This document shows, in pieces, positions 1,194-36,463 of a stretch of DNA of 48,179 nucleotides. Position numbers and translations under genes: made by a program. The notes below the pieces were generated by a model, which saw only the letters and a program-made list of their open reading frames with translations, ran no database searches and was not told the DNA's origin. Source of the stretch: a phage. How positions within the stretch are numbered: the first letter of the stretch is position 1; each line of letters begins with the position of its first letter. The DNA lies in sequence record OZ503099.1; one strand, given 5' to 3'.

Positions 1194-5197
<4,004 letters not shown>

Positions 5198-8890: not shown

Positions 8891-8942
8891 TTGATTATAT
8901 CATCTCAGTAGTGTTGACACCTGCTAGGTGGTGATGTAGATT
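8891..8942. promoter_or_regulatory. Bidirectional promoter module
   Basis: Minus-facing extended -10 TGaTATAAT (8894-8902); plus-facing TTGACA (8914-8919), 17 bp, TAGATT (8937-8942). Confidence 0.45.
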
Positions 8943-8977
8943 CAAGTCATCGAAACGAGATATTGATGAGGTGAGTT

Positions 8978-9271
8978 ATGAAAATTAAAATGTTGATTAC
9001 ATCTGTCCTGTTGGCTTCTTCTTTTGCCGTCAGTGCAACTTCCGAGGTGTGCAAAAACATCGGAGAAATCGCCATGAACACTGCAGATGTTCGCGATAAC
9101 GGTATCAGCAAGAATCTTGCGGAAGTGGTGGTAAAAGGTTCCGCAAAAAACAACGAATCAGCAGAAATAATCGGCCTTGCTATCGTAGAAATGGTTTATG
9201 CACGCAAGGATATGACCAAAGAGCAATTGCGTGATGTGGCTGTTTCTTTGTGCGAAAAGCAAGGGATGTAA
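8978..9271 (+). CDS. Small secreted protein (N-terminal signal peptide)
   Basis: MKIKMLITSVLLASSFAVSA then TSE: typical Sec signal peptide; RBS GAGGTGAG upstream; first gene of plus-strand island A. Confidence 0.55.
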   Translation: MKIKMLITSVLLASSFAVSATSEVCKNIGEIAMNTADVRDNGISKNLAEVVVKGSAKNNESAEIIGLAIVEMVYARKDMTKEQLRDVAVSLCEKQGM

Positions 9272-9280
9272 GATTCTGCT

Positions 9281-9424
9281 ATGAACGAACAAACAAAAGC
9301 TGACCTGATTTTCTATACTGATTTGTATGTCGATGCGGGTTACGACTACGAAGAAGCGGAACGCATGGCGAAAGACTTACTCCGCGTGATTGGCGTGATT
9401 TTTGATGAGGATAAGGTGATATGA
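9281..9424 (+). CDS. Hypothetical small acidic protein (47 aa)
   Basis: ATG 9281 to TGA 9424, hand-translated; stop overlaps next start (ATGA). Confidence 0.35.
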   Translation: MNEQTKADLIFYTDLYVDAGYDYEEAERMAKDLLRVIGVIFDEDKVI

Positions 9425-9711
9425 AAAATTATGAAGAGATGAGCGATTTTGAGATTAACTGCCGTGTGCACGCAGAGATTATGCAAATCTCAGGGTTGAA
9501 TTCATTTAAGGCAAAAGACTACTGCAACAACCCATCTTATGCATGGCCCATAATAATTGATAATCACATGTCAATTGAATGCGTCACGGTTAACCGGCAT
9601 GCGTTTACATATCGCGTGTATCACTCTGCATCGTTCACTAAAAGTACGCACGAAAACCCCCTTCGTGCCGCCATGATCGTCTTCCTTAAAATGAATGAGG
9701 ATAAATTATGA
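9421..9711 (+). CDS. Hypothetical protein
   Basis: 96-aa ORF, translationally coupled within island A. Confidence 0.5.
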   Translation: MKNYEEMSDFEINCRVHAEIMQISGLNSFKAKDYCNNPSYAWPIIIDNHMSIECVTVNRHAFTYRVYHSASFTKSTHENPLRAAMIVFLKMNEDKL

Positions 9712-9908
9712 GCCAGTGGATTAAGTGTAGTGAAATGCTACCTGGTAACGGTAGTACAGATAAAGAGTTCTTGGTGTATGAAACTTTGAATAATGCCGTT
9801 CAGCACGACTACTACATTGTTCCTGACGACGAGAGAAAGCCATTCTGGAATCACTACGGAAAATATGTAACGCACTGGATGCCACTACCACAACCACCAC
9901 AAGAATAA
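9708..9908 (+). CDS. DUF551-like small phage protein
   Basis: MSQWIKCSEMLPGNG...THWMPLPQPP resembles the DUF551 pattern as I remember it. Confidence 0.45.
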   Translation: MSQWIKCSEMLPGNGSTDKEFLVYETLNNAVQHDYYIVPDDERKPFWNHYGKYVTHWMPLPQPPQE

Positions 9909-10690: not shown

Positions 10691-10734
10691 ATTATATCAC
10701 AGGTGTTGACAGTGATTATTTTGTGGTGTAGATT
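10691..10734. promoter_or_regulatory. Bidirectional promoter module (paralogue of 8891-8942)
   Basis: Minus-facing TGaTATAAT (10691-10699); plus-facing TTGACA (10706-10711), 17 bp, TAGATT (10729-10734); shares GATTATATCA with the 8891 module. Confidence 0.45.
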
Positions 10735-11627: not shown

Positions 11628-12094
11628 TAGAGTGTCATCTCCTTCTTAATCACGCTATCAACAAGGTCTTTTGTGCGTTGCGCTGCTTTGGTCAGGAATT
11701 GTGGCTCGGCATTTGGGTCCCAGTAGTTACCTGTCAGCGAGCCGCCACCAAATTCCTTAACCTGTTTCGGTCCAAAATCTGAAAGGTTATTGGTCTTGCC
11801 AAAATGAGCGCGTGGCTTTCCTTTTAGTGTCCCCGGTGCGCGGTGAACATATAGAGCATAATCAGCAGAATAACCTATTTTCCCTGTTATCCTCGTCCCT
11901 GACACTTCCACCGTATCATATTGGCTATTGATAAGGTTTGATGTATCAATTGGCGTTATTGTTGCCGCTTCTGTGCGAATAATATAGTTGGCACTTTTGA
12001 TTGCTCTCACCGCTTTTTCTGCCGTGATAGTGCCAACTATCTGCTCAGTTTTGCGAATTGCCTCCTGAATACCTCTTAATTTCGCTGCCATCAC
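11627..12094 (-). CDS. Hypothetical structural protein (connector/tail completion region)
   Basis: 155-aa ORF; start/stop overlaps with neighbours. Confidence 0.45.
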   Translation of the reverse strand: MMAAKLRGIQEAIRKTEQIVGTITAEKAVRAIKSANYIIRTEAATITPIDTSNLINSQYDTVEVSGTRITGKIGYSADYALYVHRAPGTLKGKPRAHFGKTNNLSDFGPKQVKEFGGGSLTGNYWDPNAEPQFLTKAAQRTKDLVDSVIKKEMTL

Positions 12095-13724: not shown

Positions 13725-13754
13725 GTTGACGTAGATTGATGTGACGTTTATAGT
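13725..13754 (+). promoter_or_regulatory. Promoter of island B with repeated TGACGT(AGA) sites
   Basis: TTGACG (13725-13730), 18 bp, TATAGT (13749-13754); TTGACGTAGATTG at 13725-13737; TGACGT at 13726-13731, 13742-13747 and 13759-13764. Confidence 0.45.
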
Positions 13755-13794
13755 AGGTGACGTAGAAACAGCAATAAATGTTAGGGTGAATGAG

Positions 13795-13993: not shown

Positions 13994-14338
13994 ATGAAAG
14001 AATTTAAAGGTACGCCCGGGCCGTGGGTCGCAGATATTCGCGGAGGTTGCGCAGCTATTTACCCGTCTTGTCGAACTGATGACACGCCGGGCTGTCACCA
14101 CGACGATGACAGAAATATTGCCTTCTCTAGCAAGGGTGCAAAATACAACGGTATGCATTGGGAGATTGATGGCAGCGTTGTGCATGACTTTAATTTAATG
14201 GCAGCGGCCCCTGAGTTGCTTGAAGCTCTGCAAAAAATGCTTGGCAAGGCATACAAACAAAACTGGAATGAGCAATACCCAGAAGAATTGCTGTTAGCTG
14301 AAGAATCTATCAAGAAAGCATTAGGAAAGAAACAATGA
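13994..14338 (+). CDS. Hypothetical protein
   Basis: 114-aa ORF (MKEFKGTPGPW...), Cys/His-containing. Confidence 0.45.
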   Translation: MKEFKGTPGPWVADIRGGCAAIYPSCRTDDTPGCHHDDDRNIAFSSKGAKYNGMHWEIDGSVVHDFNLMAAAPELLEALQKMLGKAYKQNWNEQYPEELLLAEESIKKALGKKQ

Positions 14339-15144
14339 AAACACTAAGCAAAATCTATTCAGACAAAGAAACGCGCAACGGTATTGCTGTTAACAAAACC
14401 TATCTCGTGCCAGTGGAGCGAATCTATCTGGAGCCGGGATATAACATCCGTGAAGCAGATGAGCAACACGTTGAATATTTCGCTCAGTGCTGGGAATCAG
14501 GTCAGCCATTGCCAGCATTAACAGTTATCCCTGACGACAAAGGAATCCGCATTCTTGATGGACAGCATCGCTATCTCGGCGCATTGCGTGCCATTGAGCG
14601 CGGTGCACCAATCGTTCGCATTGAGTGTAAGGATTTCACTGGCGATGAGGCAGACAAAATCGCCTTCATGGTGTCATCCAGTCAGGGTAAGCAGCTTGAC
14701 CCGTTTGAGCGCGCAAAGGCTTATACGCGACTGAAGGGCTTTGGATGGACGAATGAAGAAATCGCCAAGAAGGTAGGGCGCTCAGTGTCTGACGTGCAAA
14801 TGCATTTGTCGTTGGGTGATGTGCCAGCGGAAGTAAAAGCGCGCATCAGTGCTGGGCAAATCAGCTATGCAAACGCCGTAGCAGTAACGCGTGAGCACGG
14901 AGATGATGCGGTAAAAGTTATCGACGAGGCAGTCGAAGAAGCGAAGGCGCAAGGCAAGGATAAGGTCACAGCGAAGGTGCTGAAGTCGAAAAAGATTAAG
15001 CCAGTGGACCGCCTGATTGAGTTACTGAAGCCAGCAGACCACGTGATTCTTCCTGCTGGTCATGTGGTGGTTGAGGATGAGGAATTTATCCAGATTCCTG
15101 TTGCTGATATTCACGAGGTCATGGCAATTCTGGAGAAGATGTGA
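14335..15144 (+). CDS. ParB/Srx-fold (ParB N-terminal-like, DGQHR motif) protein
   Basis: 269 aa with ...GIRILDGQHRYLGALRAIERG... in the N-terminal third, typical of ParB-like nuclease/NTPase domains. Confidence 0.55.
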   Translation: MKTLSKIYSDKETRNGIAVNKTYLVPVERIYLEPGYNIREADEQHVEYFAQCWESGQPLPALTVIPDDKGIRILDGQHRYLGALRAIERGAPIVRIECKDFTGDEADKIAFMVSSSQGKQLDPFERAKAYTRLKGFGWTNEEIAKKVGRSVSDVQMHLSLGDVPAEVKARISAGQISYANAVAVTREHGDDAVKVIDEAVEEAKAQGKDKVTAKVLKSKKIKPVDRLIELLKPADHVILPAGHVVVEDEEFIQIPVADIHEVMAILEKM

Positions 15145-21881: not shown

Positions 21882-22376
21882 TCATACTCTTGCTTCTTGC
21901 GTTTGGCTTTCCCCATGCTGACCTCTTACGTTGCGAAGAAGTGAATTGAACAGGTTGCTCACATTAACTTCCTGCTCATGCCATGAGTAACTCCACAGCT
22001 TCTTGTGGTGGTCATAGCTTCGCGTCACGTCTCCGTTATGAAACATAATGCGGATGCGGTTTTTCACGATTCGATAATCAATGCTAGTGTCTGCGCTAAT
22101 TTCTTTCACCTCTGCGCCAGCGTTATCAATCAAATGGCACTTAATGGCATCATCAATACCTGCCGCATCATCAGAGATGAAATATTTATACTGCCACTTA
22201 CCGCCACGAATCACTGACTTCTCACGGCGAATAAAGCCAAGTGCCAGCATCTCATGCAAACGATGCGTAGTTGTGCTTGAATGTTTACCACCGCAATGCT
22301 TTTCAATGTATGCGCGCGTTGCTCCCGGATGATTGACAATCACGCGCATTATTTGCGATTCATAGTCCATAATCAC
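21882..22376 (-). CDS. Hypothetical protein with N-terminal winged-helix-like region
   Basis: 164 aa; N-terminal 70 aa resemble a winged-helix DNA-binding fold. Confidence 0.35.
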   Translation of the reverse strand: MIMDYESQIMRVIVNHPGATRAYIEKHCGGKHSSTTTHRLHEMLALGFIRREKSVIRGGKWQYKYFISDDAAGIDDAIKCHLIDNAGAEVKEISADTSIDYRIVKNRIRIMFHNGDVTRSYDHHKKLWSYSWHEQEVNVSNLFNSLLRNVRGQHGESQTQEARV

Positions 22377-23054: not shown

Positions 23055-23153
23055 TTCCACATCACCTTTTCTGTTATGGTACAATCTACGTCAACAAGTA
23101 TTGACTAAGTGATGTAGAAACGTCAAGATGTTTTTCGAGAAGGAGTAGTAAAT

Positions 23154-25023: not shown

Positions 25024-25263
25024 TCACGCATTCTTGCTTTCATCTTTTAACCTCTTATTCGCCTTATTCATCGCATGCATCTTGCCGAGTATGGAGAGCA
25101 GTAGAATGGAATAGCTGATAGCCTTTACCGCGATTGGCGGCAGCGCTGCTTTCAGGTCATCAGGCATCATTACCCACACATGCATCATTGCATCAGGCCA
25201 CAGCTGCAATAGCGAGCAGAATGAAATCCACGCACCAAGCAGCCAGTTGCTTAGCTTTTTCAT
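25024..25263 (-). CDS. Holin-like small membrane protein
   Basis: 79 aa with two hydrophobic segments and charged C-terminus; ATGA overlap with endolysin stop. Confidence 0.5.
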   Translation of the reverse strand: MKKLSNWLLGAWISFCSLLQLWPDAMMHVWVMMPDDLKAALPPIAVKAISYSILLLSILGKMHAMNKANKRLKDESKNA

Positions 25264-25724
25264 GCCACGGCCCCGCCAGCATCCTTGTACACCTGAATCA
25301 GCTTATCCAGTTTCTGCTCATGCTGACCATAGCCAGCGCCCGGCAATGAAGCCCAGCGGGAGCGGCATTTATGGATAGCATCAGCAATGCGACCAGCTTC
25401 AATGTCGGCAGTGGCTTTGCATTCGCGGATTAACTTCATTGCAATAGCGTCCTGTGATGCTGGGGAGAAGTCCGGCAGGCACAGCTGCTTTTTGTACGCG
25501 TCATAAAATTTAGCCAGCACCTGATAGCGCCCGGCGGCGGTGGACTTGATGCCCAGCTTAGGCAGGCTAATCAGCTTGCGTGGGTGGTCGGAGTAATCAG
25601 TAAACAGTGAGCCGCCAACAATCACATCATAGCCATGATTATTGGTTTTCTGTCGTCCGTTATCCGTACCCTCGCTGTACGCCAGCATATCCAGAAACGC
25701 CTTCATGTTTTTGCTAATAGCCAT
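25260..25724 (-). CDS. R: Endolysin, lambda R-like lytic transglycosylase
   Basis: FLDMLAYSEGTDNGRQKTNNHGYDVIVGG...WASLPGAGYGQHEQK closely matches lambda R as I recall it; start at internal ATG 25724. Confidence 0.85.
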   Translation of the reverse strand: MAISKNMKAFLDMLAYSEGTDNGRQKTNNHGYDVIVGGSLFTDYSDHPRKLISLPKLGIKSTAAGRYQVLAKFYDAYKKQLCLPDFSPASQDAIAMKLIRECKATADIEAGRIADAIHKCRSRWASLPGAGYGQHEQKLDKLIQVYKDAGGAVA

Positions 25725-25992
25725 ACCAGTAAACCTCTTTTTCAGCCTTGCGTTTTGCTTTGTCGCCAGTCTTCTCGCCCCACACGATGAAATGAGCAAC
25801 AGCACATGAGAAGCAGCGAAGGTTGTGTTTCTTCAGAAGCGTTGATTTGCGGAAAGTGTCAATACCAATGTCGGTGGCGAGGCTTGTCAGTGCATCAAAC
25901 TGATTCTGCGTTGTCTCGGTGGTGATGTAAGGCGATATATCCACGGCATCGGTGATTCCAAGCGTTTCCATGCCGCGTTGCGATAGTTTCAT
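25714..25992 (-). CDS. Small ORF resembling the C-terminal lobe of a GH24 (P22/T4-type) lysozyme; possible gene remnant
   Basis: TQNQFDALTSLATDIGIDTFRKSTLLKKHNL parallels NQNQYDALCSLIFNIGKSAFAGSTVLRQLNL of P22-type lysozymes (from memory); N-terminal catalytic region absent; strong RBS AGGAGG. Confidence 0.4.
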   Translation of the reverse strand: MKLSQRGMETLGITDAVDISPYITTETTQNQFDALTSLATDIGIDTFRKSTLLKKHNLRCFSCAVAHFIVWGEKTGDKAKRKAEKEVYWYGY

Positions 25993-26036
25993 CCTGCCTC
26001 CTGTTTAAATAATGATTAATTCTATCACAACAGGTA

Positions 26037-26076
26037 TTGATGTAGATTGAGAGGTGGTGCATACTATCTACATCAA
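26037..26076 (+). promoter_or_regulatory. Promoter of island D with palindromic operator-like site
   Basis: TTGATG (26037-26042), 17 bp, CATACT (26060-26065); inverted repeat TTGATGTAGAT (26037-26047) / ATCTACATCAA (26066-26076). Confidence 0.45.
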
Positions 26077-26097
26077 ATGATGAGTGAGGGAGAAATC

Positions 26098-26241
26098 ATG
26101 GTAATAGTCAAATTCAAAGAAACAGGATGCCGCAGAATGTTCAACCTTGAGCAAATCAAAATACGTCCATGCGGCAAGGTGGTTGCGCCATTTAGTCTGG
26201 TGCAGATGCGTGAATGCGAAATTGTTGAATATATTAAGTGA
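26098..26241 (+). CDS. Hypothetical small protein
   Basis: 47 aa from ATG 26098; four Cys. Confidence 0.4.
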   Translation: MVIVKFKETGCRRMFNLEQIKIRPCGKVVAPFSLVQMRECEIVEYIK

Positions 26242-26249
26242 GGCAGGCT

Positions 26250-26513
26250 ATGACGCAGCGCCAGGTGTACCAGTTATTTAGTGAGTGGTTTGATTATGTT
26301 GGTTTTGTCGGCATGACGGATAGAGAAAAGGACTTGATTTGGCTTGGGTTTTCTGTTGGTTATTGTCACGAAAATAGTAAATCAATGCTATCAGCGCTCC
26401 AGCAACTCTTGGAAATCTACGACGACCACTCCGGCAAGGTCTGGACAACATCAAGCAAGCGTCGCGCTCTTGATAATGCGCGTGCGGCGGTTAATAAAGC
26501 ATTGGGAGAATAA
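26250..26513 (+). CDS. Hypothetical protein
   Basis: 87 aa from ATG 26250. Confidence 0.45.
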   Translation: MTQRQVYQLFSEWFDYVGFVGMTDREKDLIWLGFSVGYCHENSKSMLSALQQLLEIYDDHSGKVWTTSSKRRALDNARAAVNKALGE

Positions 26514-26515
26514 TT

Positions 26516-26740
26516 ATGTGGCTTGTATTTAATATTGGATGCATAGAATGCGGTGTCTCATCAAATGTTGTTGCTGTTTATCCGCACAAACATGAAGCCG
26601 ATGCTGTCGCAGCAAAACTAAATGAAAAATTCTCATGGCGAGACGGCGGTCAAAACTCGTATGAGGTATTTAAGCTTGGTGAACTGTACGAGGTTGAAGG
26701 TGAATATAAAGAAATACTTTCTGATGGAGAAACAAAATGA
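26516..26740 (+). CDS. Hypothetical protein
   Basis: 74-aa ORF. Confidence 0.45.
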   Translation: MWLVFNIGCIECGVSSNVVAVYPHKHEADAVAAKLNEKFSWRDGGQNSYEVFKLGELYEVEGEYKEILSDGETK

Positions 26741-26952
26741 GCAACAAGAAGGTAATTGTTGGTGGCATTTACAAGAGTAATTACTCTTGGGGCGATGCAG
26801 GTGTGGCTAGTTTCATGGTAACTGCGGTTGGGTTGGAACACATACTTATCGCTGACTACCCATTGATAAAACTCAATGAATCCTGTTTAGAATATTGTGT
26901 TGGTAGAAAGGAATTCGAATCAAAATTTGAGTTTGTGGAGGAAACAAAATGA
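26737..26952 (+). CDS. Hypothetical protein
   Basis: 71-aa ORF; ATGA overlap. Confidence 0.45.
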   Translation: MSNKKVIVGGIYKSNYSWGDAGVASFMVTAVGLEHILIADYPLIKLNESCLEYCVGRKEFESKFEFVEETK

Positions 26953-27599
26953 AACTTATCGACCTGTTAGTTCAAGAATTGCCTAAGCGTGGTGGGTGGC
27001 CTCACAATGCGCTGTCAATTACCCAAGATGATGACGGTTCTCTGTGCGTATGGGACACAAATGACCCAAACTATGATGGATTGTCATGGAGACATCACAC
27101 AGGGAATAGCCTTGTATATTACTGGCGTGGAATTGATGCCGTACCTTTATCTTGCGACCACAGGGAGTCGATAGTGACCTATTGGCAATACAAATCAGCG
27201 ATCGCAGCATCGCAAAAGCCAGCATGGAACGGAGATGGCTTACCGCCAGTTGGTGAAAAAGTAGAATTTTTCATCAATCCAAAGTTTGGATACCGCAATG
27301 ACTGGATTCCTGCTGCTGGAACTGAAATGGAAGTAGTTGCACACAAGAAAACCACGGACGGAAACGATGTGGCTGTTTGCTACTGGGATGAGGGTGGCGC
27401 CGGTCGGTCATGCTGCTTCGTGCCTGAAAGCCTAAAGCCATTACGCACAGAAGCAGAAAAGAAGCATGAGGCTGTACTTGAGTCTATCTGCGCGGTGTTA
27501 GAAATGGTAGCTCAAGATTACAAGCGCGAGGACGAGGCCAAGCTAATTTATGAAGCTATCGCGGCAGGCAAGATTCCAGGTGTTAAACTGGATGATTAA
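26949..27599 (+). CDS. Hypothetical protein (216 aa, Trp-rich)
   Basis: Largest ORF of island D; no recognisable motif. Confidence 0.5.
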   Translation: MKLIDLLVQELPKRGGWPHNALSITQDDDGSLCVWDTNDPNYDGLSWRHHTGNSLVYYWRGIDAVPLSCDHRESIVTYWQYKSAIAASQKPAWNGDGLPPVGEKVEFFINPKFGYRNDWIPAAGTEMEVVAHKKTTDGNDVAVCYWDEGGAGRSCCFVPESLKPLRTEAEKKHEAVLESICAVLEMVAQDYKREDEAKLIYEAIAAGKIPGVKLDD

Positions 27600-27675
27600 A
27601 ACAATATTCAGCGTCGTAGAGATATTGTGCTATGCGATAATAATATTTGTTCTGTGCATGCTGATAAGATAAATC

Positions 27676-27700
27676 AAAGCCCTCACTTAGAGGGCTTTTT
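27676..27700. terminator. Rho-independent terminator
   Basis: AAAGCCCTC-ACTTA-GAGGGCTTT hairpin followed by TT. Confidence 0.6.
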
Positions 27701-28672
27701 GCTTGCTGACTGCCACGCTTCACGCTGCTTATCAAGCCTTTCCTGCGACGACTCAAGAATAACTGGCTTGCCATCCATTAACAGCGATGGGATTTGGCTG
27801 CAGTGGCAATTATATCTATTGCCATTCTCACTATAAAACGTGTCAATCTCTTCTGGCGTGTAAAAGCGCCCGTGTCTCGCTGCGTGAGTCTGGCGGGTCG
27901 TGCGCATCAATGCCGACTGCCACAGCATCACCGTCTCAATGCCTAACTCTTCGCGCGCCTCAATGACCTCTCTCCTGTTAGCCTGCCTGAGTGTTCCTGT
28001 GATTTCTGTTTGCGCCAACTGTTTCGCATAGCTGTGAGATACATCAACACGTTTAACAATATCATCCTCAACATCGCGAGGATTAGCTCCACGAGCAATG
28101 CCTTCCATAATGACAGATGCCAGTTGCTGACGGGAGTAATCGCTCAATCCGCGCCAGTCGGAATAACCTTGTGTGTACGCCAGCTGGAGCCGATTCAGGT
28201 AAGGCTCACTGTAGAGTATCGCGGCAATCGGCCTTTGCTCAGCATAAACAGGAGACAGGCTTGACAGTTCCGAGTTGGCTTTCTGTGTGCCAGCCTGATA
28301 CACATCACCAATGAATACGTTAGCCCACATTCTGCCGTGACCGAAATCATCACCCTCAAGCAAAATCTCGTCAACCAGCTCCTGTAATTCATCCATGAAA
28401 GTGGCGGCCCGCGCGCTGCTGAAATCATAGAAATACAAGCCGCTTGATTCTGCATTGGTCTGACTACTTGGAATGGTGCGAAACAACTCAAGGGCACGAA
28501 TCCTGAGTTGCTTGTATTTGCGCGTTATCACCTTATCCATCTTCGACAGGCGAGTTGCAGCGCCTAACGGGTCCGTCAGACTCTGCGATATGCGCGGCTG
28601 TGGCAGTCTTGCGTTAAACCGGAGTATCTTCATTTTCGTCTTCCGGTGGTGTGTCTTCGCGGTAGCTTTCAT
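27683..28672 (-). CDS. Head morphogenesis protein (Mu F-like minor head protein)
   Basis: Position directly downstream of portal; C-terminal region has the character of Mu-F/SPP1 gp7-type proteins; start uncertain. Confidence 0.5.
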
Positions 28673-30026
28673 CAAGCTCAATCGGCTCCATGCCAACCAT
28701 GCCGCGAGCCTCATCAACACTCAGCAATGCAGATTGACCAGCATCAAAGAACGACTTGTTCGCAGTTGCGAGCTTAGACAGCAATTCAGCTTTATCCAGC
28801 TCAGAAGGGGCAAGCAGGTCATCCCACTTAACCTTGTAGCCATTTGCCGGGGCTTTATCGACAATGCCGAACTGAATCATGCGCTCAACGAACATTGAGA
28901 TAACATAATCAACCCATGTTTCGCGGCGCTGTTTGGCGGTCATCGCCTCCTGCATCTTGTCTTCGTCGCTCGCAAGACGTCCGGTCTGCTGCCCAAAAAT
29001 GACGGTGAACGGAAGTGCCATTGATGCGGCGAACTGGTTGGCAGCCACTTCCCATGTGGGTTTCGGGTCGGCCGGTGTCACAGCGAGAACTTTTGCATCC
29101 GCGCCCATTGTGAACATAGCGGCGTCAATCCCGGAGTTCAGCGCCTCAATGTTCTCATTCATGATGTCGGTTAGCTCTTCAATATCGACACCCATTGATT
29201 GCGCAAGGCTTGCTGGTGTTACGTTATCCTTCGTGTAGTTAACAGCCAGTTGGCGGCTTGCATTTTTCAGGAACCCTTCAGCTGAGCTACCGGAAACCTT
29301 AGCCATGTCGATAAGGCTATTGTAACCAGCACGCAGCATTGGGATTCCACTGAACATGCTGCCATCGAAGCTACCCTCAGCCAGAATGATGATGCGGTCT
29401 GGATGAATCTGTACGGAACGCTCAGGTTTGCCGTCGCTATCGAAATCTTCCACGGCGCTTTCCTGATATTCGTACATCTCAGGCATTCCGTAGTCTTCGC
29501 TGGTTTCGTCATTATTCCATGCGCTGACGCGGAGCTGCTCCTCCCATACAGGAATAAAGCGAACGATGGATTTATCTTTAATGCGGCGGGTCTTTGTGAT
29601 GTCTACTGGCTCACTCCACTGCTTGCCGTCACGGATTTGCAGGATAATAGCAGAGTAGCGGTTGATGGCGTTGCGTTTGTCGGCCTCCTTGATGAATGGG
29701 TAAGCACGCTTCATCATGTCGTTGATGGACAGTTCCCACGACGTTGAGTTCTTGTCGTCCTCGCCATCTTCGACCACTTCTGGGTATTTCTGCCAACATT
29801 TATTAATAATGCGGTTGATACCAGCGGCGGCGGCTGGATGTCGTTCGTAGGCATAGCGGAACATCTCAGCGGTAATTTCCTGTGGGTAGCCCAGCTCCTT
29901 CCACATGAACTCACGTTTCTGGTCCAGATTCTTCCCGCCAGCACAAAGCCGCTGCTGCTGGAGCGCCCGGTTATTATTCGCCACGCGGTCGCGTATATAG
30001 GCGTTTAATGCATCAATTTTTGACAT
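28614..30026 (-). CDS. Portal protein
   Basis: 470 aa between large terminase region and head morphogenesis gene; acidic C-terminus. Confidence 0.6.
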
Positions 30027-31103: not shown

Positions 31104-31370
31104 TCACCCTCTCAAAAAATCATTCTTGCAGCAGATACCCTTATATCCGCGCTTCTCCTGCAGGTTAACGAAAACATCATCCAGAACGCGTAGCAGGAAG
31201 TCTTCGTCGATATCATACCGACGACAAATCACCTCGTCAGGCACGCCAGCTCGCGCCAGTGAATAAACCTGCTCTTTTTCCTCCTGTGTGAACCCTGCAT
31301 AGCTGCGCATAGTGATATCTCCGATAAGCCTGATGTAGATTATACTATTCGCTCGGTGTAGATTGGTCAA
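31104..31370 (-). CDS. Hypothetical protein with helix-turn-helix-like segment
   Basis: 88-aa ORF. Confidence 0.4.
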   Translation of the reverse strand: MTNLHRANSIIYIRLIGDITMRSYAGFTQEEKEQVYSLARAGVPDEVICRRYDIDEDFLLRVLDDVFVNLQEKRGYKGICCKNDFLRG

Positions 31371-31386
31371 GTGTGGTGATGAAGAT

Positions 31387-32811
31387 TTATCGCCTGCGAC
31401 GGATTAGCATTCCACTGCCACGCTGAACGATGTGGTCATTGAGTGCATAACGAACCGCGTCCCAGTAGTGGTTATATGCATCAACAATATCAGTCAGCAC
31501 ATTCCCTGTCAGCTTATCAACTTTGTAGCTGTACATTGCCGCCTCATTCTGCATCTCCTTGCATCGTTCGTGAATGACAATGCTGTCGCAGCCGCGTAAC
31601 CATGTCACGCCATCCTCGACACTGCCGGGCCATTTTGTGCATGGATGAATGTCAAAGCCAGAGCGCTTGATGTGGCTGATAGTTTCTGGTCGCGCGCAGT
31701 CGGCATACCATCGTGCGCGCTTAGCCATCGGGAATGATTGCTCCATCGCAGCTGGCGTGTCGGTAATCTCAAGCCCCACCTTTCCGTACTCGCGATTAAT
31801 ATAAATATTGCGTCGCCCGCCGGGTAACTCTTCGATGTAAACCTCAACCATTGCGGTTGGATCGGTGGAAAACCCAAAGTCCATCCCGAAGTATGGTCCA
31901 TGCCATTCAGGCTTGACCTCGAAGTTATCAATGAGCCATTTTCCGCCAAATACCTGTTCGTCGCTACGCTTGTTGAATTTTCCTTCATACACCCAAAGGT
32001 AGCGATCATAATCCACTGCCTTCATCTGGTTCATGTGCTGTTTAAGTTCTTCCGTGAACCACGGGTTGTGAACGTAGTTAACATTAACAACAACGATGTC
32101 ATCATCCTGATATATGCCATCTACCATCTTGTCGATGTAAGGCTCAACAAAGTTAGTCCATGTCGGGTCCGTCTCTTTGTTCGGGTTAAAAACAATAATA
32201 ATTTCAGAACCAGCGGCGCGCACCGTTGGAATTAACGTATCCCATGACACCTGACTGATGTTTTCGGATTCTTCACAGAACACGTCTGTAAGGCCAGCCA
32301 TGCCTTTGATTGCGGTTATGTTTCGCCAAAGGCCACGAAAAACAAACTTTGATCTCGTTGTGTGGTGTGTTATCTCGCCATCCACGCAACGATATTCCTG
32401 AGTGTGCCCCTTCCTGTTTATCTCATCAACCAGTTCGGCATAGCTTGATTCTTTGATTGAGTTCTGTATCTCACGGAAGCATCCGACGCGGCTGTTGCGG
32501 AATCTTGCCTTTTCTATAAGGTAAGAAACAACGTTAGCCGTCTTTCCGCTGCCCCTACCCCCATAGAACACCTTGAAACGGCGAGGATAAAGCAGCAGCT
32601 CCATTCGCTCAGGTATTAATATTGTTGGCTTCTCGTCTGTTTCTGACACGCCAGTGGCTGTCATTTTAAGGCACTTAACCACATTCGGTGTACCGTCAGG
32701 CAATAGCTTATCGACAATACCGAAAACAGAAGACTCTGGTTTTGCAGTTGAATTGCCTACTGCTTGCTCAAGTTTTTCTATCGCAACGCTTGAGAGTCTT
32801 TTACGCGCCAT
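31387..32811 (-). CDS. Terminase large subunit
   Basis: Walker A YGGRGSGKT near the N-terminus, conserved acidic nuclease-type residues in the C-terminal half, 474 aa. Confidence 0.8.
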   Translation of the reverse strand: MARKRLSSVAIEKLEQAVGNSTAKPESSVFGIVDKLLPDGTPNVVKCLKMTATGVSETDEKPTILIPERMELLLYPRRFKVFYGGRGSGKTANVVSYLIEKARFRNSRVGCFREIQNSIKESSYAELVDEINRKGHTQEYRCVDGEITHHTTRSKFVFRGLWRNITAIKGMAGLTDVFCEESENISQVSWDTLIPTVRAAGSEIIIVFNPNKETDPTWTNFVEPYIDKMVDGIYQDDDIVVVNVNYVHNPWFTEELKQHMNQMKAVDYDRYLWVYEGKFNKRSDEQVFGGKWLIDNFEVKPEWHGPYFGMDFGFSTDPTAMVEVYIEELPGGRRNIYINREYGKVGLEITDTPAAMEQSFPMAKRARWYADCARPETISHIKRSGFDIHPCTKWPGSVEDGVTWLRGCDSIVIHERCKEMQNEAAMYSYKVDKLTGNVLTDIVDAYNHYWDAVRYALNDHIVQRGSGMLIRRRR

Positions 32812-36404: not shown

Positions 36405-36434
36405 CTCTTCACCCCCGTTTGTTACGATGAGTTC

Positions 36435-36463
36435 AATCTACATCAATGATGATTCTACGTCAA
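36435..36463 (-). promoter_or_regulatory. Minus-strand promoter for the long leftward transcription unit
   Basis: On the minus strand TTGACG (36458-36463), 17 bp, TAGATT (36435-36440); two copies of the recurrent 13-bp motif. Confidence 0.45.

What the first reader, a model, noticed from the sequence alone, without database searches (positions are those of the whole stretch)
26037..27700. Island D: five-gene plus-strand cassette under a palindromic operator-like promoter
The promoter lies within an inverted repeat TTGATGTAGAT…ATCTACATCAA, a candidate repressor site. It drives five coupled ORFs (47 to 216 aa) of unknown function located between the lysis and head-morphogenesis genes.
Basis: seen in the sequence. 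Interest (0 to 1): 0.45.

Follow-up and report, generated by a model that had tools for sequence, protein, structure and literature searches.

The report
Phage accessory operon behind shared operator motif
This is an ordinary small-gene operon of a Skatevirus-type lytic phage, largely dispensable in a relative, but its "palindrome" is two copies of a 12-base motif found at most of the phage's promoters, so it looks like one node of an undescribed genome-wide control circuit.

Summary
There is a perfect 11-nt inverted repeat (26037-26047 / 26066-26076), a weak sigma-70-like promoter inside it, five tightly packed plus-strand ORFs (47, 87, 74, 71, 216 aa) and a bidirectional terminator (27676-27698). 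They lie between minus-strand lysis and head-morphogenesis genes of a Skatevirus-like phage.

- The repeat is not a private palindromic operator. Each arm is a copy of TGAYGTAGAWW. This motif occurs 12 times in the window against 0.6 expected, and nearly all copies lie at promoter regions. It contains the most frequent 10-mer of the genome.
- The motif is conserved in Salmonella, E. coli and Klebsiella phage relatives.
- In distant relatives the two copies at this promoter are direct, not inverted.
- The left arm also overlaps the divergent lysis promoter.

All five ORFs are real genes under purifying selection. ORF1, the ORF2 C-terminus and ORF5 are conserved across Skatevirus relatives; ORF3 and ORF4 are variable. 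No function could be assigned.

In deposited genome-reduced mutants of the relative seszw, the ORF5 homologue is usually deleted and the ORF1 homologue is almost always kept.

Best model: an early accessory operon whose promoter is occluded by an unidentified motif-binding regulator, probably phage-encoded.

The parts
25993..26097 (.). Divergent control region (105 bp) between the lysis operon (minus strand) and the island (plus strand). Almost invariant in 11 relatives even though the first downstream gene differs.
26019..26027 (-). Extended -10 element TGATAGAAT of the predicted lysis-operon promoter. Its -35 zone (TCTACA, 26046->26041) lies inside the left repeat arm. Predicted start is near 26012, with SD AGGAGG at 26002->25997.
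   Evidence: activity inferred
26037..26048 (+). Left arm, motif copy TTGATGTAGATT. Its first six bases are the -35 hexamer of the island promoter (TTGACG in most relatives).
26060..26065 (+). -10 hexamer CATACT (CATAGT or CATAAT in relatives), 17 nt after the -35. Predicted start is near 26071-26073.
   Evidence: activity inferred
26065..26076 (-). Right arm, motif copy TTGATGTAGATA read on the minus strand. It covers about -6 to +5 of the island promoter.
26098..26241 (+). ORF1, 47 aa, basic, strand-rich by eye (not modelled), phrog_21280 (unknown function). Present in all 15 Skatevirus loci examined (66-85% identity). Absent from ZCKP8 and CHRF_10023.1. Its homologue is kept in 69 of about 70 seszw records, including the 36.6-kb minimal genome.
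26250..26513 (+). ORF2, 87 aa. The C-terminal 33-45 aa (phrog_1273) are shared by all relatives, but the N-termini differ between them (domain shuffling).
26516..26740 (+). ORF3, 74 aa, no family match. Found in 3 of 15 related loci, with pN/pS about 0.15-0.21.
26737..26952 (+). ORF4, 71 aa, phrog_20019 (unknown function). Found in 1 of 15 related loci.
26949..27599 (+). ORF5, 216 aa, phrog_7798. It has 2078 homologues and is always the last large gene of the island (one or two tiny ORFs follow it in seszw, L016 and CHRF_10023.1). The N-terminus (MKLIDLLVQELPKRGGWP) and C-terminus (IYEAIAAGKIPGVKL) are invariant and the middle is variable. The AlphaFold model has an N-terminal alpha/beta domain, an SH3/Tudor-like barrel and a C-terminal helical hairpin. 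The homologue is deleted in most viable seszw mutants.
27676..27703 (.). Bidirectional intrinsic terminator AAAGCCCTCACTTAGAGGGCTTT plus a T run. The sequence is identical in 10 of 12 relatives checked. It ends the island (plus strand) and the portal/MuF operon (minus strand).
8931..8943 (+). Motif copy in another promoter: TTGACA-17-TAGATT, with the motif at -17..-8. It drives the plus-strand island 8978-9908.
13726..13769 (+). Two direct motif copies at -34..-25 and -3..+6 of TTGACG-17-TATAGT. This is the promoter of the operon that holds the ParB-like gene.
23082..23121 (.). Two motif copies in opposite orientation in the divergent promoter region at 23.1 kb.
31330..31388 (+). Three direct motif copies at a 23-bp period. 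They overlap the minus-strand promoter TTGACC-17-TAGTAT of the 68-aa HTH-like gene, with one copy at -5..+4.
36434..36463 (-). Two direct motif copies forming the -35 (TTGACG) and -10 (TAGATT) of one promoter.
31104..31310 (-). Candidate motif-binding protein, 68 aa. It is 95-100% identical in Skatevirus relatives and 53% identical in Klebsiella phage ZCKP8, and is present in all six full genomes compared. The model is a three-helix HTH-like fold. This link is speculative.
14335..15144 (+). Alternative candidate: ParB/KorB-like HTH protein, 269 aa.
   Evidence: against:

Best explanation
Island D is a conserved, separately transcribed accessory operon of a Skatevirus-type virulent siphophage. 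It is bracketed by an almost invariant promoter region and an invariant bidirectional terminator, and genes are swapped in and out between these two ends.

Host sigma-70 RNA polymerase is predicted to start at about 26072 from TTGATG-17-CATACT and to read ORF1 to ORF5 as one translationally coupled message that stops at 27676-27703.

The 'palindrome' is two copies of the phage's 11-12 bp motif TGAYGTAGAWW. One copy lies on the -35 hexamer and also on the -35 zone of the back-to-back lysis promoter. The other lies on -6..+5.

The same motif overlaps the core elements of most other promoters of the genome. It sits at -34..-25, at -17..-8 or around +1, in either orientation. The most likely mechanism is therefore promoter occlusion by one trans-acting sequence-specific DNA-binding protein, probably phage-encoded. 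Such a protein would shut down or coordinate these promoters as it accumulates, with the island as one member of the regulon.

The encoded proteins have no assignable activity. By homology with seszw mutants, ORF5 and the variable genes are dispensable for lytic growth in the laboratory, so they are probably host-interaction or accessory factors.

Shown here: the sequence anatomy, conservation, motif statistics, purifying selection, and dispensability of the homologues. Inferred: promoter activity, start sites, that a protein binds the motif, the direction of regulation, early timing, and protein function.
For: Anatomy.

The control region is conserved in 11 relatives while the first gene varies. 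The terminator is identical in 10 of 12 relatives.

Motif statistics:
- TGAYGTAGA occurs 12 times in the window against 0.64 expected, with a maximum of 3 in shuffles.
- ATCTACATCA is the most frequent 10-mer of the window, and ATCTACGTCA the most frequent in Klebsiella phage ZCKP8, found without prior pattern.
- The other full genomes carry 10-14 TGAYGTAGA sites each: BS5, Bas78, minimal seszw, ZCKP8 and CHRF_10023.1 (site listings).
- Non-circular linkage: 7 of 24 TAGATT hexamers are preceded by GAYG, against 0 of 82 for TATAAT, TAAAAT and TACAAT.

The motif lies at three different promoter positions and in both orientations. This fits occlusion and not a fixed sigma or activator element.

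The C/T change in the left arm is not compensated in the right arm, and the two copies are direct in L016 and ZCKP8. This argues for two separate binding sites rather than a hairpin.

Between the window and ZCKP8, the motif copies and the -10 are conserved while the spacer has diverged.

The genes are real: pN/pS 0.15-0.6, PHROG matches, 2078 ORF5 homologues.

Dispensability: the seszw_300L.2 minimal genome keeps only the ORF1 homologue of the island. The ORF5 homologue is present at 99% identity or more in 13 records, against 69 for the ORF1 homologue. The source is the CiPGr study, PMC9825161.
Against: - There are no transcription data for any relative, so promoter activity, timing and start sites are predictions.
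- The window's own promoter is weak (8 of 12 matches) and was not called by the scanner.
- No binding protein has been identified, and every candidate has a weakness.
  - The ParB/KorB-like gene is missing from CHRF_10023.1, which still has 14-17 sites.
  - The MarR-like gene is absent from the viable minimal seszw genome and only 35% identical in ZCKP8.
  - The 68-aa protein has only weak fold matches (E > 0.2) and no Pfam family.
- The motif itself contains a -35-like TTGACG and a -10-like TAGATT, so part of its positional pattern follows from its own sequence.
- seszw carries a 19-bp deletion that fuses the two arms, yet it is a viable phage.
- Repressing the lysis promoter late in infection would be counter-productive, so the sign of regulation at that promoter is unclear.
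Confidence: 0.55

Rival explanations
1. There is no dedicated regulator. The 12-mer TTGACG+TAGATT is simply a reusable sigma-70 promoter module that supplies a -35 in one register and a -10 in another. On this view the inverted repeat is two such modules face to face. The left one fires into the island. The right one (TAGATA as -10 on the minus strand) fires towards the lysis genes.
For: The motif contains good -35-like and -10-like hexamers. In four promoters TAGATT sits exactly 17 nt after TTGACA/G (TTGCCT in one), and in three promoters TTGACG sits 17 nt before an independent -10. In most cases a forward copy lies 25-60 nt upstream of a start codon. The 17-bp and 23-bp offsets between copies match promoter geometry.
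Against: Sigma-70 gives no reason to keep the two hexamers fused, or to conserve GAYG in the spacer. TAGATT is preceded by GAYG in 7 of 24 cases, whereas other -10-like hexamers are so preceded in 0 of 82. Copies reading TAGAAA lack the essential -7 T yet are conserved. Copies also occur reversed across +1, at P4 and P5, and three copies point into the 3' end of the terminase gene where there is nothing to transcribe.
Confidence: 0.25
2. This is the first reader's model: a stand-alone palindromic operator bound by a dimeric repressor that controls only this cassette.
For: There is perfect 11-nt dyad symmetry around the -10, and it is conserved in close relatives.
Against: The same sequence is present at seven or more other promoter regions. 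The arm centres are 29 bp apart. The symmetry is imperfect in most relatives and is replaced by direct repeats in L016 and ZCKP8. No repressor-like gene lies in or next to the island.
Confidence: 0.05
3. The repeat acts as a nucleic-acid structure: an RNA hairpin that attenuates, terminates or stabilises a transcript, or a DNA cruciform.
For: The arms can pair, with a minimum free energy of -15.6 kcal/mol for 26030-26100.
Against: The z-score is only -1.65, and 14 of 200 shuffles fold as well. No U tract follows on either strand. The predicted start lies inside the right arm, so the island mRNA would not contain both arms. The left-arm C/T substitution is uncompensated, and the copies are direct in distant relatives. 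There is no Rfam match.
Confidence: 0.03
4. The conserved promoter and terminator act mainly as recombination 'bookends', like the promoter-early stem-loop cassettes of T4-type phages. Homologous exchange at these ends would shuffle accessory genes between co-infecting relatives, and regulation would be secondary.
For: The ends are invariant and the content is mosaic. The islands hold 3 to 6 genes, ORF3 and ORF4 are sporadic, and ORF2 has swapped N-termini. GC is lower in ORF1-4 (40-44%) than in the flanks (about 50%).
Against: This does not explain why the motif overlaps core promoter elements at promoters that do not border variable cassettes, such as the replication-gene promoters at 36.4, 40.4 and 43.5 kb. 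It is compatible with the best explanation rather than an alternative to it.
Confidence: 0.1

Closest known systems
KorA/KorB global regulon of IncP-1 (RK2) plasmids
   Same: One short operator sequence is repeated at about a dozen promoters of a small replicon, overlapping or adjoining core promoter elements and giving coordinated repression. The phage also encodes a ParB/KorB-family HTH protein (Pfam HTH_ParB and KorB above threshold; Spo0J E = 5e-13), and that protein's own operon promoter carries two motif copies.
   Different: KorB and KorA operators are palindromes, whereas this motif is asymmetric. The link between the ParB-like protein and the motif is untested, and one relative lacking the gene keeps the sites. 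The replicon here is a lytic phage, not a plasmid.
T4 middle promoters (MotA box with sigma-70 -10; AsiA/MotA sigma appropriation)
   Same: A phage-specific 9-11 bp box replaces or overlaps the -35 region of otherwise sigma-70-type promoters. In three promoters here the motif spans -34..-25, about where the MotA box lies.
   Different: The position is not fixed: the motif is also at -17..-8 and across +1, in both orientations. No MotA or AsiA homologue was seen among the proteins scanned. Activation is not implied.
Promoter-early stem-loop (PeSL) mobile regulatory cassettes of T4-type phages, and 'morons' of lambdoid phages
   Same: These are small genes of unknown function with their own promoter and terminator, sitting between conserved structural or lysis modules. 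Their content varies between relatives while the regulatory ends stay conserved.
   Different: Three of the island's components (ORF1, the ORF2 C-terminus, ORF5) are conserved across the genus, so the island is not a sporadic insertion. The phage is virulent, so there is no expression from a prophage. The repeated element is a promoter motif, not a stem-loop.
phrog_7798 / phrog_3483 / phrog_26870 family of uncharacterised phage proteins (ORF5)
   Same: ORF5 matches phrog_7798 over its full length (E = 6e-70). BFVD fold matches go to uncharacterised proteins of Aeromonas, Pseudomonas, Enterobacter and Klebsiella phages.

Membership tests
Sigma-70 (-35/-10) promoter | TTGACA-like and TATAAT-like hexamers separated by 16-18 bp, with A at position 2 and T at position 6 of the -10 | tested here: met
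   TTGATG-17-CATACT gives 8 of 12 matches, below the scanner cut-off of 9. Relatives have TTGACG-17-CATAGT or CATAAT, 9-10 of 12.
Sigma-70 (-35/-10) promoter | Transcription starts 6-8 nt downstream of the -10 | not testable with these tools
   No transcript data are available for this phage or its relatives. Literature searches found none.
Palindromic operator of a dimeric HTH repressor (lambda/P22/434 type) | Two half-sites with dyad symmetry about one helical turn apart within a 14-20 bp site | tested here: not met
   The arm centres are 29 bp apart.
Palindromic operator of a dimeric HTH repressor (lambda/P22/434 type) | Dyad symmetry maintained in evolution | tested here: not met
   The left arm is TTGACG in most relatives with no compensating change. 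The copies are direct in L016 and ZCKP8.
Dispersed operator regulon (KorA/KorB-like) | The same operator sequence is present at many promoters of the replicon | tested here: met
   There are 12 exact core matches in the window, all but one (inside a coding sequence at 19.7 kb) in eight promoter regions. Relatives have 10-14.
Dispersed operator regulon (KorA/KorB-like) | An identified cognate DNA-binding protein that binds the operator | tested here: inconclusive
   Three candidates were found (ParB/KorB-like, MarR-like, 68-aa HTH-like), and each has evidence against it. Binding cannot be tested in silico here.
T4 MotA-box middle promoter | A box at a fixed position centred near -30, with a sigma-70 -10 | tested here: not met
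   The motif is at -34..-25 in three promoters, but at -17..-8 in four and across +1 in four, in both orientations.
Intrinsic (rho-independent) terminator | A GC-rich stem-loop followed by a U tract | tested here: met
   The stem has 9 bp (5 GC) and a 5-nt loop, with T runs on both strands. The sequence is identical in 10 of 12 relatives.
Moron (lambdoid-phage sense) | An autonomous promoter-gene-terminator unit present in some relatives and absent from others at the same junction | tested here: not met
   The unit is autonomous, but an island with an ORF5 homologue is present at this junction in every relative examined, including ZCKP8 and CHRF_10023.1. Only ORF3 and ORF4 are sporadic.
SUKH / SMI1_KNR4 immunity-protein superfamily (ORF5 N-terminus) | A Pfam PF09346 match above the gathering threshold | tested here: not met
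   E = 0.29, 12.2 bits against a cut-off of 25.4.
Known anti-phage defence or named NCBI families (all five ORFs) | A significant match to PADLOC or NCBIfam models | tested here: not met
   There were no matches at E <= 0.1.

The most novel reading that the evidence does not exclude
TGAYGTAGAWW is the operator of a previously unrecognised phage-encoded global regulator shared by Skatevirus, Macdonaldcampvirus and Roufvirus-like phages. The regulator could be the ultra-conserved 68-aa HTH-like protein, whose own promoter carries three copies. At the 26.0-kb divergent region the two copies would form a timing switch: binding blocks the early island promoter at -35 and +1, while sitting at -35..-26 of the extended -10 lysis promoter, where it could spare or even activate late lysis-gene expression.
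Probability: 0.3. Interest if true: 0.6.

Novelty: new member of a known kind. Interest (0 to 1): 0.4.

Why it matters
Skatevirus-type phages are widely isolated for Salmonella and E. coli biocontrol and are part of the BASEL collection, yet nothing is known about how they time gene expression.

A single 12-base motif at nearly every promoter gives a concrete, testable handle on the whole transcription programme and on the unknown factor that reads it. It also marks the regulatory 'bookends' between which accessory genes are exchanged, which is useful for engineering or minimising these phages.

For the cassette itself the message is sobering. Its largest protein is conserved in thousands of relatives but is dispensable in the laboratory and has no recognisable function. 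The 47-aa ORF1 is the member worth a genetic test, because its homologue survived nearly all genome-reduction lineages.

Tried and rejected
- Family searches: Pfam, NCBIfam and PADLOC gave nothing significant for ORF1-5, and PHROGs gave only families of unknown function.
- Rfam on 25600-28000 gave no match.
- Hairpin reading of the repeat: the fold is not significant and there is no covariation.
- Exact-pattern scan of IMG/VR for the palindrome returned two loci (L002, L003) that are unrelated coding sequence, so they are chance hits.
- Literature: no paper mentions the motif or Skatevirus promoters. The CiPGr supplementary tables are not held, so gene-level essentiality calls could not be read. 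The deposited mutant genomes were used instead.
- ORF1 as the motif binder was rejected, because ORF1 is absent from ZCKP8 and CHRF_10023.1, which keep the motif.
- Host transcription-factor sites recalled from memory (FNR, DnaA, DeoR, EvgA, MetJ and others) do not fit the motif. This was not tested with a database.
- The profile of the 68-aa protein against PDB sequences found nothing. Its homologue search returned 16 clusters with no Pfam domain.
Full report
**Context.** The window is a Skatevirus-like virulent siphophage genome. The best nucleotide matches are Salmonella, E. coli and Shigella phages such as SeLz-2, KFS-SE2, SeSz-2, ASO78B, BS5 and the BASEL phages Bas77-80. Identity is about 88-90% with mosaic coverage. 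In these genomes gene clusters alternate in orientation. The finding lies between the minus-strand lysis genes and the minus-strand portal and MuF head-morphogenesis genes. The lysis genes are two lysozyme-like ORFs at 25714-25992 and 25260-25724, followed by a holin and a spanin. MuF is at 27683-28720 and the portal at 28614-30026.

**Check of the observation.**
- The arms TTGATGTAGAT (26037-26047) and ATCTACATCAA (26066-26076) are perfectly complementary and 18 nt apart.
- Between them lies a sigma-70-like promoter, TTGATG-17-CATACT. It scores 8 of 12, just under the scanner's threshold.
- Five plus-strand ORFs follow, of 47, 87, 74, 71 and 216 aa. Each has a Shine-Dalgarno sequence, and the gaps are 8 nt, 2 nt and two ATGA overlaps.
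- A 9-bp GC-rich hairpin with T runs on both strands at 27676-27698 terminates both the island and the converging MuF operon.

An 11-nt perfect inverted repeat alone is not rare. Shuffles give 0.71 per window, and 41% of shuffles have at least one. Its significance therefore rests on conservation and on the recurrence of the motif.

**The repeat arms are copies of a genome-wide motif.** Searching the arm sequence in the window gave 45 matches with up to 2 mismatches, against 18 expected.
- The core TGAYGTAGA occurs 12 times against 0.64 expected, with a maximum of 3 in 200 dinucleotide shuffles.
- All but one of these lie in promoter-bearing intergenic regions, at 8.9, 13.7 (two copies), 23.1 (two), 26.0 (two), 31.3, 36.4 (two) and 40.4 kb. 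Weaker copies lie at 10.7, 31.35, 31.38 and 43.46-43.48 kb.
- A k-mer count without any prior pattern finds ATCTACATCA, the reverse complement of TGATGTAGAT, as the most frequent 10-mer of the whole window.
- The aligned copies give T-G-A-Y-G-T-A-G-A-W-W.
- A test that does not depend on how copies were selected: 7 of 24 TAGATT hexamers are preceded by GAYG, against 0 of 82 TATAAT, TAAAAT and TACAAT hexamers.

**Conservation of the motif.**
- Counting TGAYGTAGA, the five other full genomes carry 10-14 sites each (site listings). They are BS5, Bas78, the 36.6-kb minimal mutant of seszw, Klebsiella phage ZCKP8 (where ATCTACGTCA is the top 10-mer) and the Macdonaldcampvirus CHRF_10023.1.
- At orthologous promoters in the window and in ZCKP8, the motif copies and the -10 are kept while the spacer has diverged.

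**The control region at 26.0 kb.** The 105 bp between the two start codons are almost invariant in 11 relatives, although the first gene behind the promoter differs among them.
- Most relatives read TTGACGTAGATT...CATAGT-ATCTACATCAA. This is a better promoter than in the window, and an imperfect palindrome whose C/T difference is not compensated. That argues against a hairpin and for two independent copies of the motif.
- In the more distant L016 and in ZCKP8 the second copy is in direct orientation. Two copies are conserved; dyad symmetry is not.
- seszw has a 19-bp deletion that fuses the arms.
- On the minus strand there is an extended -10 promoter, TGATAGAAT (26027->26019). It is conserved as TGnTAGAAT in all relatives and is followed by AGGAGG and the first lysis gene. 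Because the MuF operon ends at the terminator, the lysis genes need this promoter.
- The left arm therefore covers the -35 of the island promoter and -35..-26 of the lysis promoter. The right arm covers -6..+5 of the island promoter.

**Where the motif sits in other promoters.** Pairing each site with the best sigma-70-like promoter gives three classes.
- At -34..-25, where TTGACG serves as the -35 hexamer: P2 at 13.7 kb, P4 (this one) and P6 at 36.4 kb.
- At -17..-8, where TAGATT is the -10 hexamer, 17 nt after TTGACA/G (TTGCCT at 43.5 kb): 8.9, 10.7, 36.4 and 43.5 kb.
- Across +1, in either orientation: P2, P3 on the minus strand, P4 and P5.

At 31.3 kb three copies at a 23-bp period overlap the minus-strand promoter TTGACC-17-TAGTAT of a 68-aa gene. 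A fixed-position sigma or activator element would not behave this way. Any overlap with the polymerase footprint suits a repressor that works by occlusion.

The caveat is that the motif itself contains -35-like and -10-like hexamers, so the first two classes partly follow from its own sequence. The rival reading, a bare promoter module with no dedicated factor, cannot be excluded. It does not explain three things: the fused hexamers, the conserved GAYG, and the TAGAAA copies, which lack the key -7 T.

**Who binds the motif?** This was not resolved.
- ParB/KorB-like protein (14335-15144). Pfam HTH_ParB and KorB are above threshold, and Spo0J matches at E = 5e-13. It is 95-99% identical in 135 records and 80% identical in Klebsiella relatives. 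It is retained in the minimal seszw genome, and two motif copies stand at its operon promoter. Against it: ParB operators are palindromic, and CHRF_10023.1 has lost all but 33 residues of the gene while keeping its 14-17 sites.
- MarR-like protein (21882-22370; phrog_1687; Pfam below threshold). It is absent from the viable minimal genome and only 35% identical in ZCKP8, where the motif is unchanged.
- 68-aa protein (31104-31310, minus strand). It is present in all six full genomes compared, at 95-100% identity within Skatevirus relatives and 53% in ZCKP8. The single-sequence AlphaFold model is a three-helix bundle (pLDDT 74.5). Its nearest PDB folds are DNA-bound HTH domains (NarL, CENP-B, DosR, DeoR, resolvase, KorA), but all at E > 0.2. 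It has no Pfam domain and only 16 homologue clusters. It is the most attractive candidate, but it remains speculative.
- ORF1 is excluded, because ZCKP8 and CHRF_10023.1 lack it.

**The five proteins.** All are under purifying selection, with crude pN/pS of 0.15-0.6.
- ORF1 (phrog_21280), the C-terminal 33-45 residues of ORF2 (phrog_1273) and ORF5 (phrog_7798) occur in all 15 Skatevirus loci. ORF3 occurs in three and ORF4 in one.
- Islands hold 3 to 6 genes between the invariant promoter and the terminator.
- ORF1-4 have 40-44% GC, against about 50% in the flanks.
- ORF5 has 2078 homologues, with invariant N- and C-terminal segments and a variable middle.
- No Pfam, NCBIfam or PADLOC family applies.

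**Experimental evidence from a relative.** The CiPGr study reduced the genome of the Skatevirus seszw by iterative Cas9 deletion and deposited the mutant genomes (PMC9825161).
- The smallest viable mutant, MZ375355 (36,655 bp), keeps only the 47-aa ORF1 homologue (gene 73) between the lysozyme and head-assembly genes.
- Across the roughly 70 seszw records, the ORF1 homologue is present at 99% identity or more in 69, and the ORF5 homologue in 13.
- The homologues of ORF5 and of the ORF2-type gene are therefore dispensable in the laboratory.
- ORF1 may be important, or it may simply have lacked a usable Cas9 target. The supplementary table that would decide this is not held.

**Verdict.** But the palindrome is one instance of a regulon-wide motif rather than a private operator. 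The region also controls the lysis genes. The cassette is a conserved three-component operon with variable inserts.

The operon is ordinary and its proteins remain of unknown function. The promoter motif is the notable result. It is conserved across at least three phage genera and appears to be undescribed. I rate the finding a new member of a known kind (a phage or plasmid regulon with dispersed operators) and of moderate interest.

Noticed in passing
window 25260-25992 (minus strand): There are two adjacent lysozyme-like ORFs that overlap by 11 nt. The 92-aa one matches only positions 55-114 of Pfam Phage_lysozyme. The 154-aa one is a separate endolysin family (phrog_90). Both are annotated as endolysins in all relatives. 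This could be a split or dual endolysin arrangement.
   Followed up: partly
window 31330-31388: Three direct motif copies at an exact 23-bp period abut the stop codon of the large terminase gene and overlap the promoter of the 68-aa HTH-like gene. This is the densest motif cluster in the genome. On the plus strand the copies read as TAGATT-17-TAGATT tandem promoter-like units pointing antisense into the terminase gene.
   Followed up: partly
L015/L019/L020 (Salmonella phage seszw), island region: The 47-aa ORF1 homologue survives in 69 of about 70 deposited seszw genomes, including the 36.6-kb minimal one. The rest of the island is usually deleted. Natural relatives (ZCKP8, CHRF_10023.1) nevertheless lack ORF1.
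   Followed up: partly
L015 2420-2445 (seszw): A 19-bp deletion fuses the two motif copies (TTGACGTA|TAGTATCTACATCAA) and destroys the normal -35/-10 spacing of the island promoter in this viable phage.
   Followed up: no
L023 1646-2490 (Salmonella phage CHRF_10023.1): The ParB/KorB-like gene and the two genes upstream of it are missing. An HNH endonuclease sits next to the promoter and a 33-residue ParB C-terminal remnant is left. The genome still has 14-17 motif sites.
   Followed up: yes
window 26250-26513 and homologues in L015, L010, L011, L012, L007, L016: The C-terminal 33-45 residues of ORF2 (...LQQLLEIYDDHSGKVWTTSSKRRALDNARAAVNKALGE) are joined to unrelated N-terminal parts in different relatives. 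This points to recombination inside the gene.
   Followed up: partly
window 4636-4696 and 11984-12041: There are perfect inverted repeats with 15-nt arms (TAACGCCCTTGTCAG, 31 nt apart) and 12-nt arms (ATAGTTGGCACT, 34 nt apart) inside the tail and head-tail gene regions.
   Followed up: no
window 10706-10734 (+): A strong promoter-like site, TTGACA-17-TAGATT, with the motif variant TGGTGTAGATT points plus-strand within a mainly minus-strand structural region. The gene it drives was not determined.
   Followed up: no
L021 10301-11704 (Klebsiella phage ZCKP8): The same junction between head morphogenesis and endolysin holds an opposite-strand island here too. It has different genes: a 287-aa protein shares only the N- and C-terminal segments of ORF5. 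Its promoter carries two direct motif copies.
   Followed up: partly
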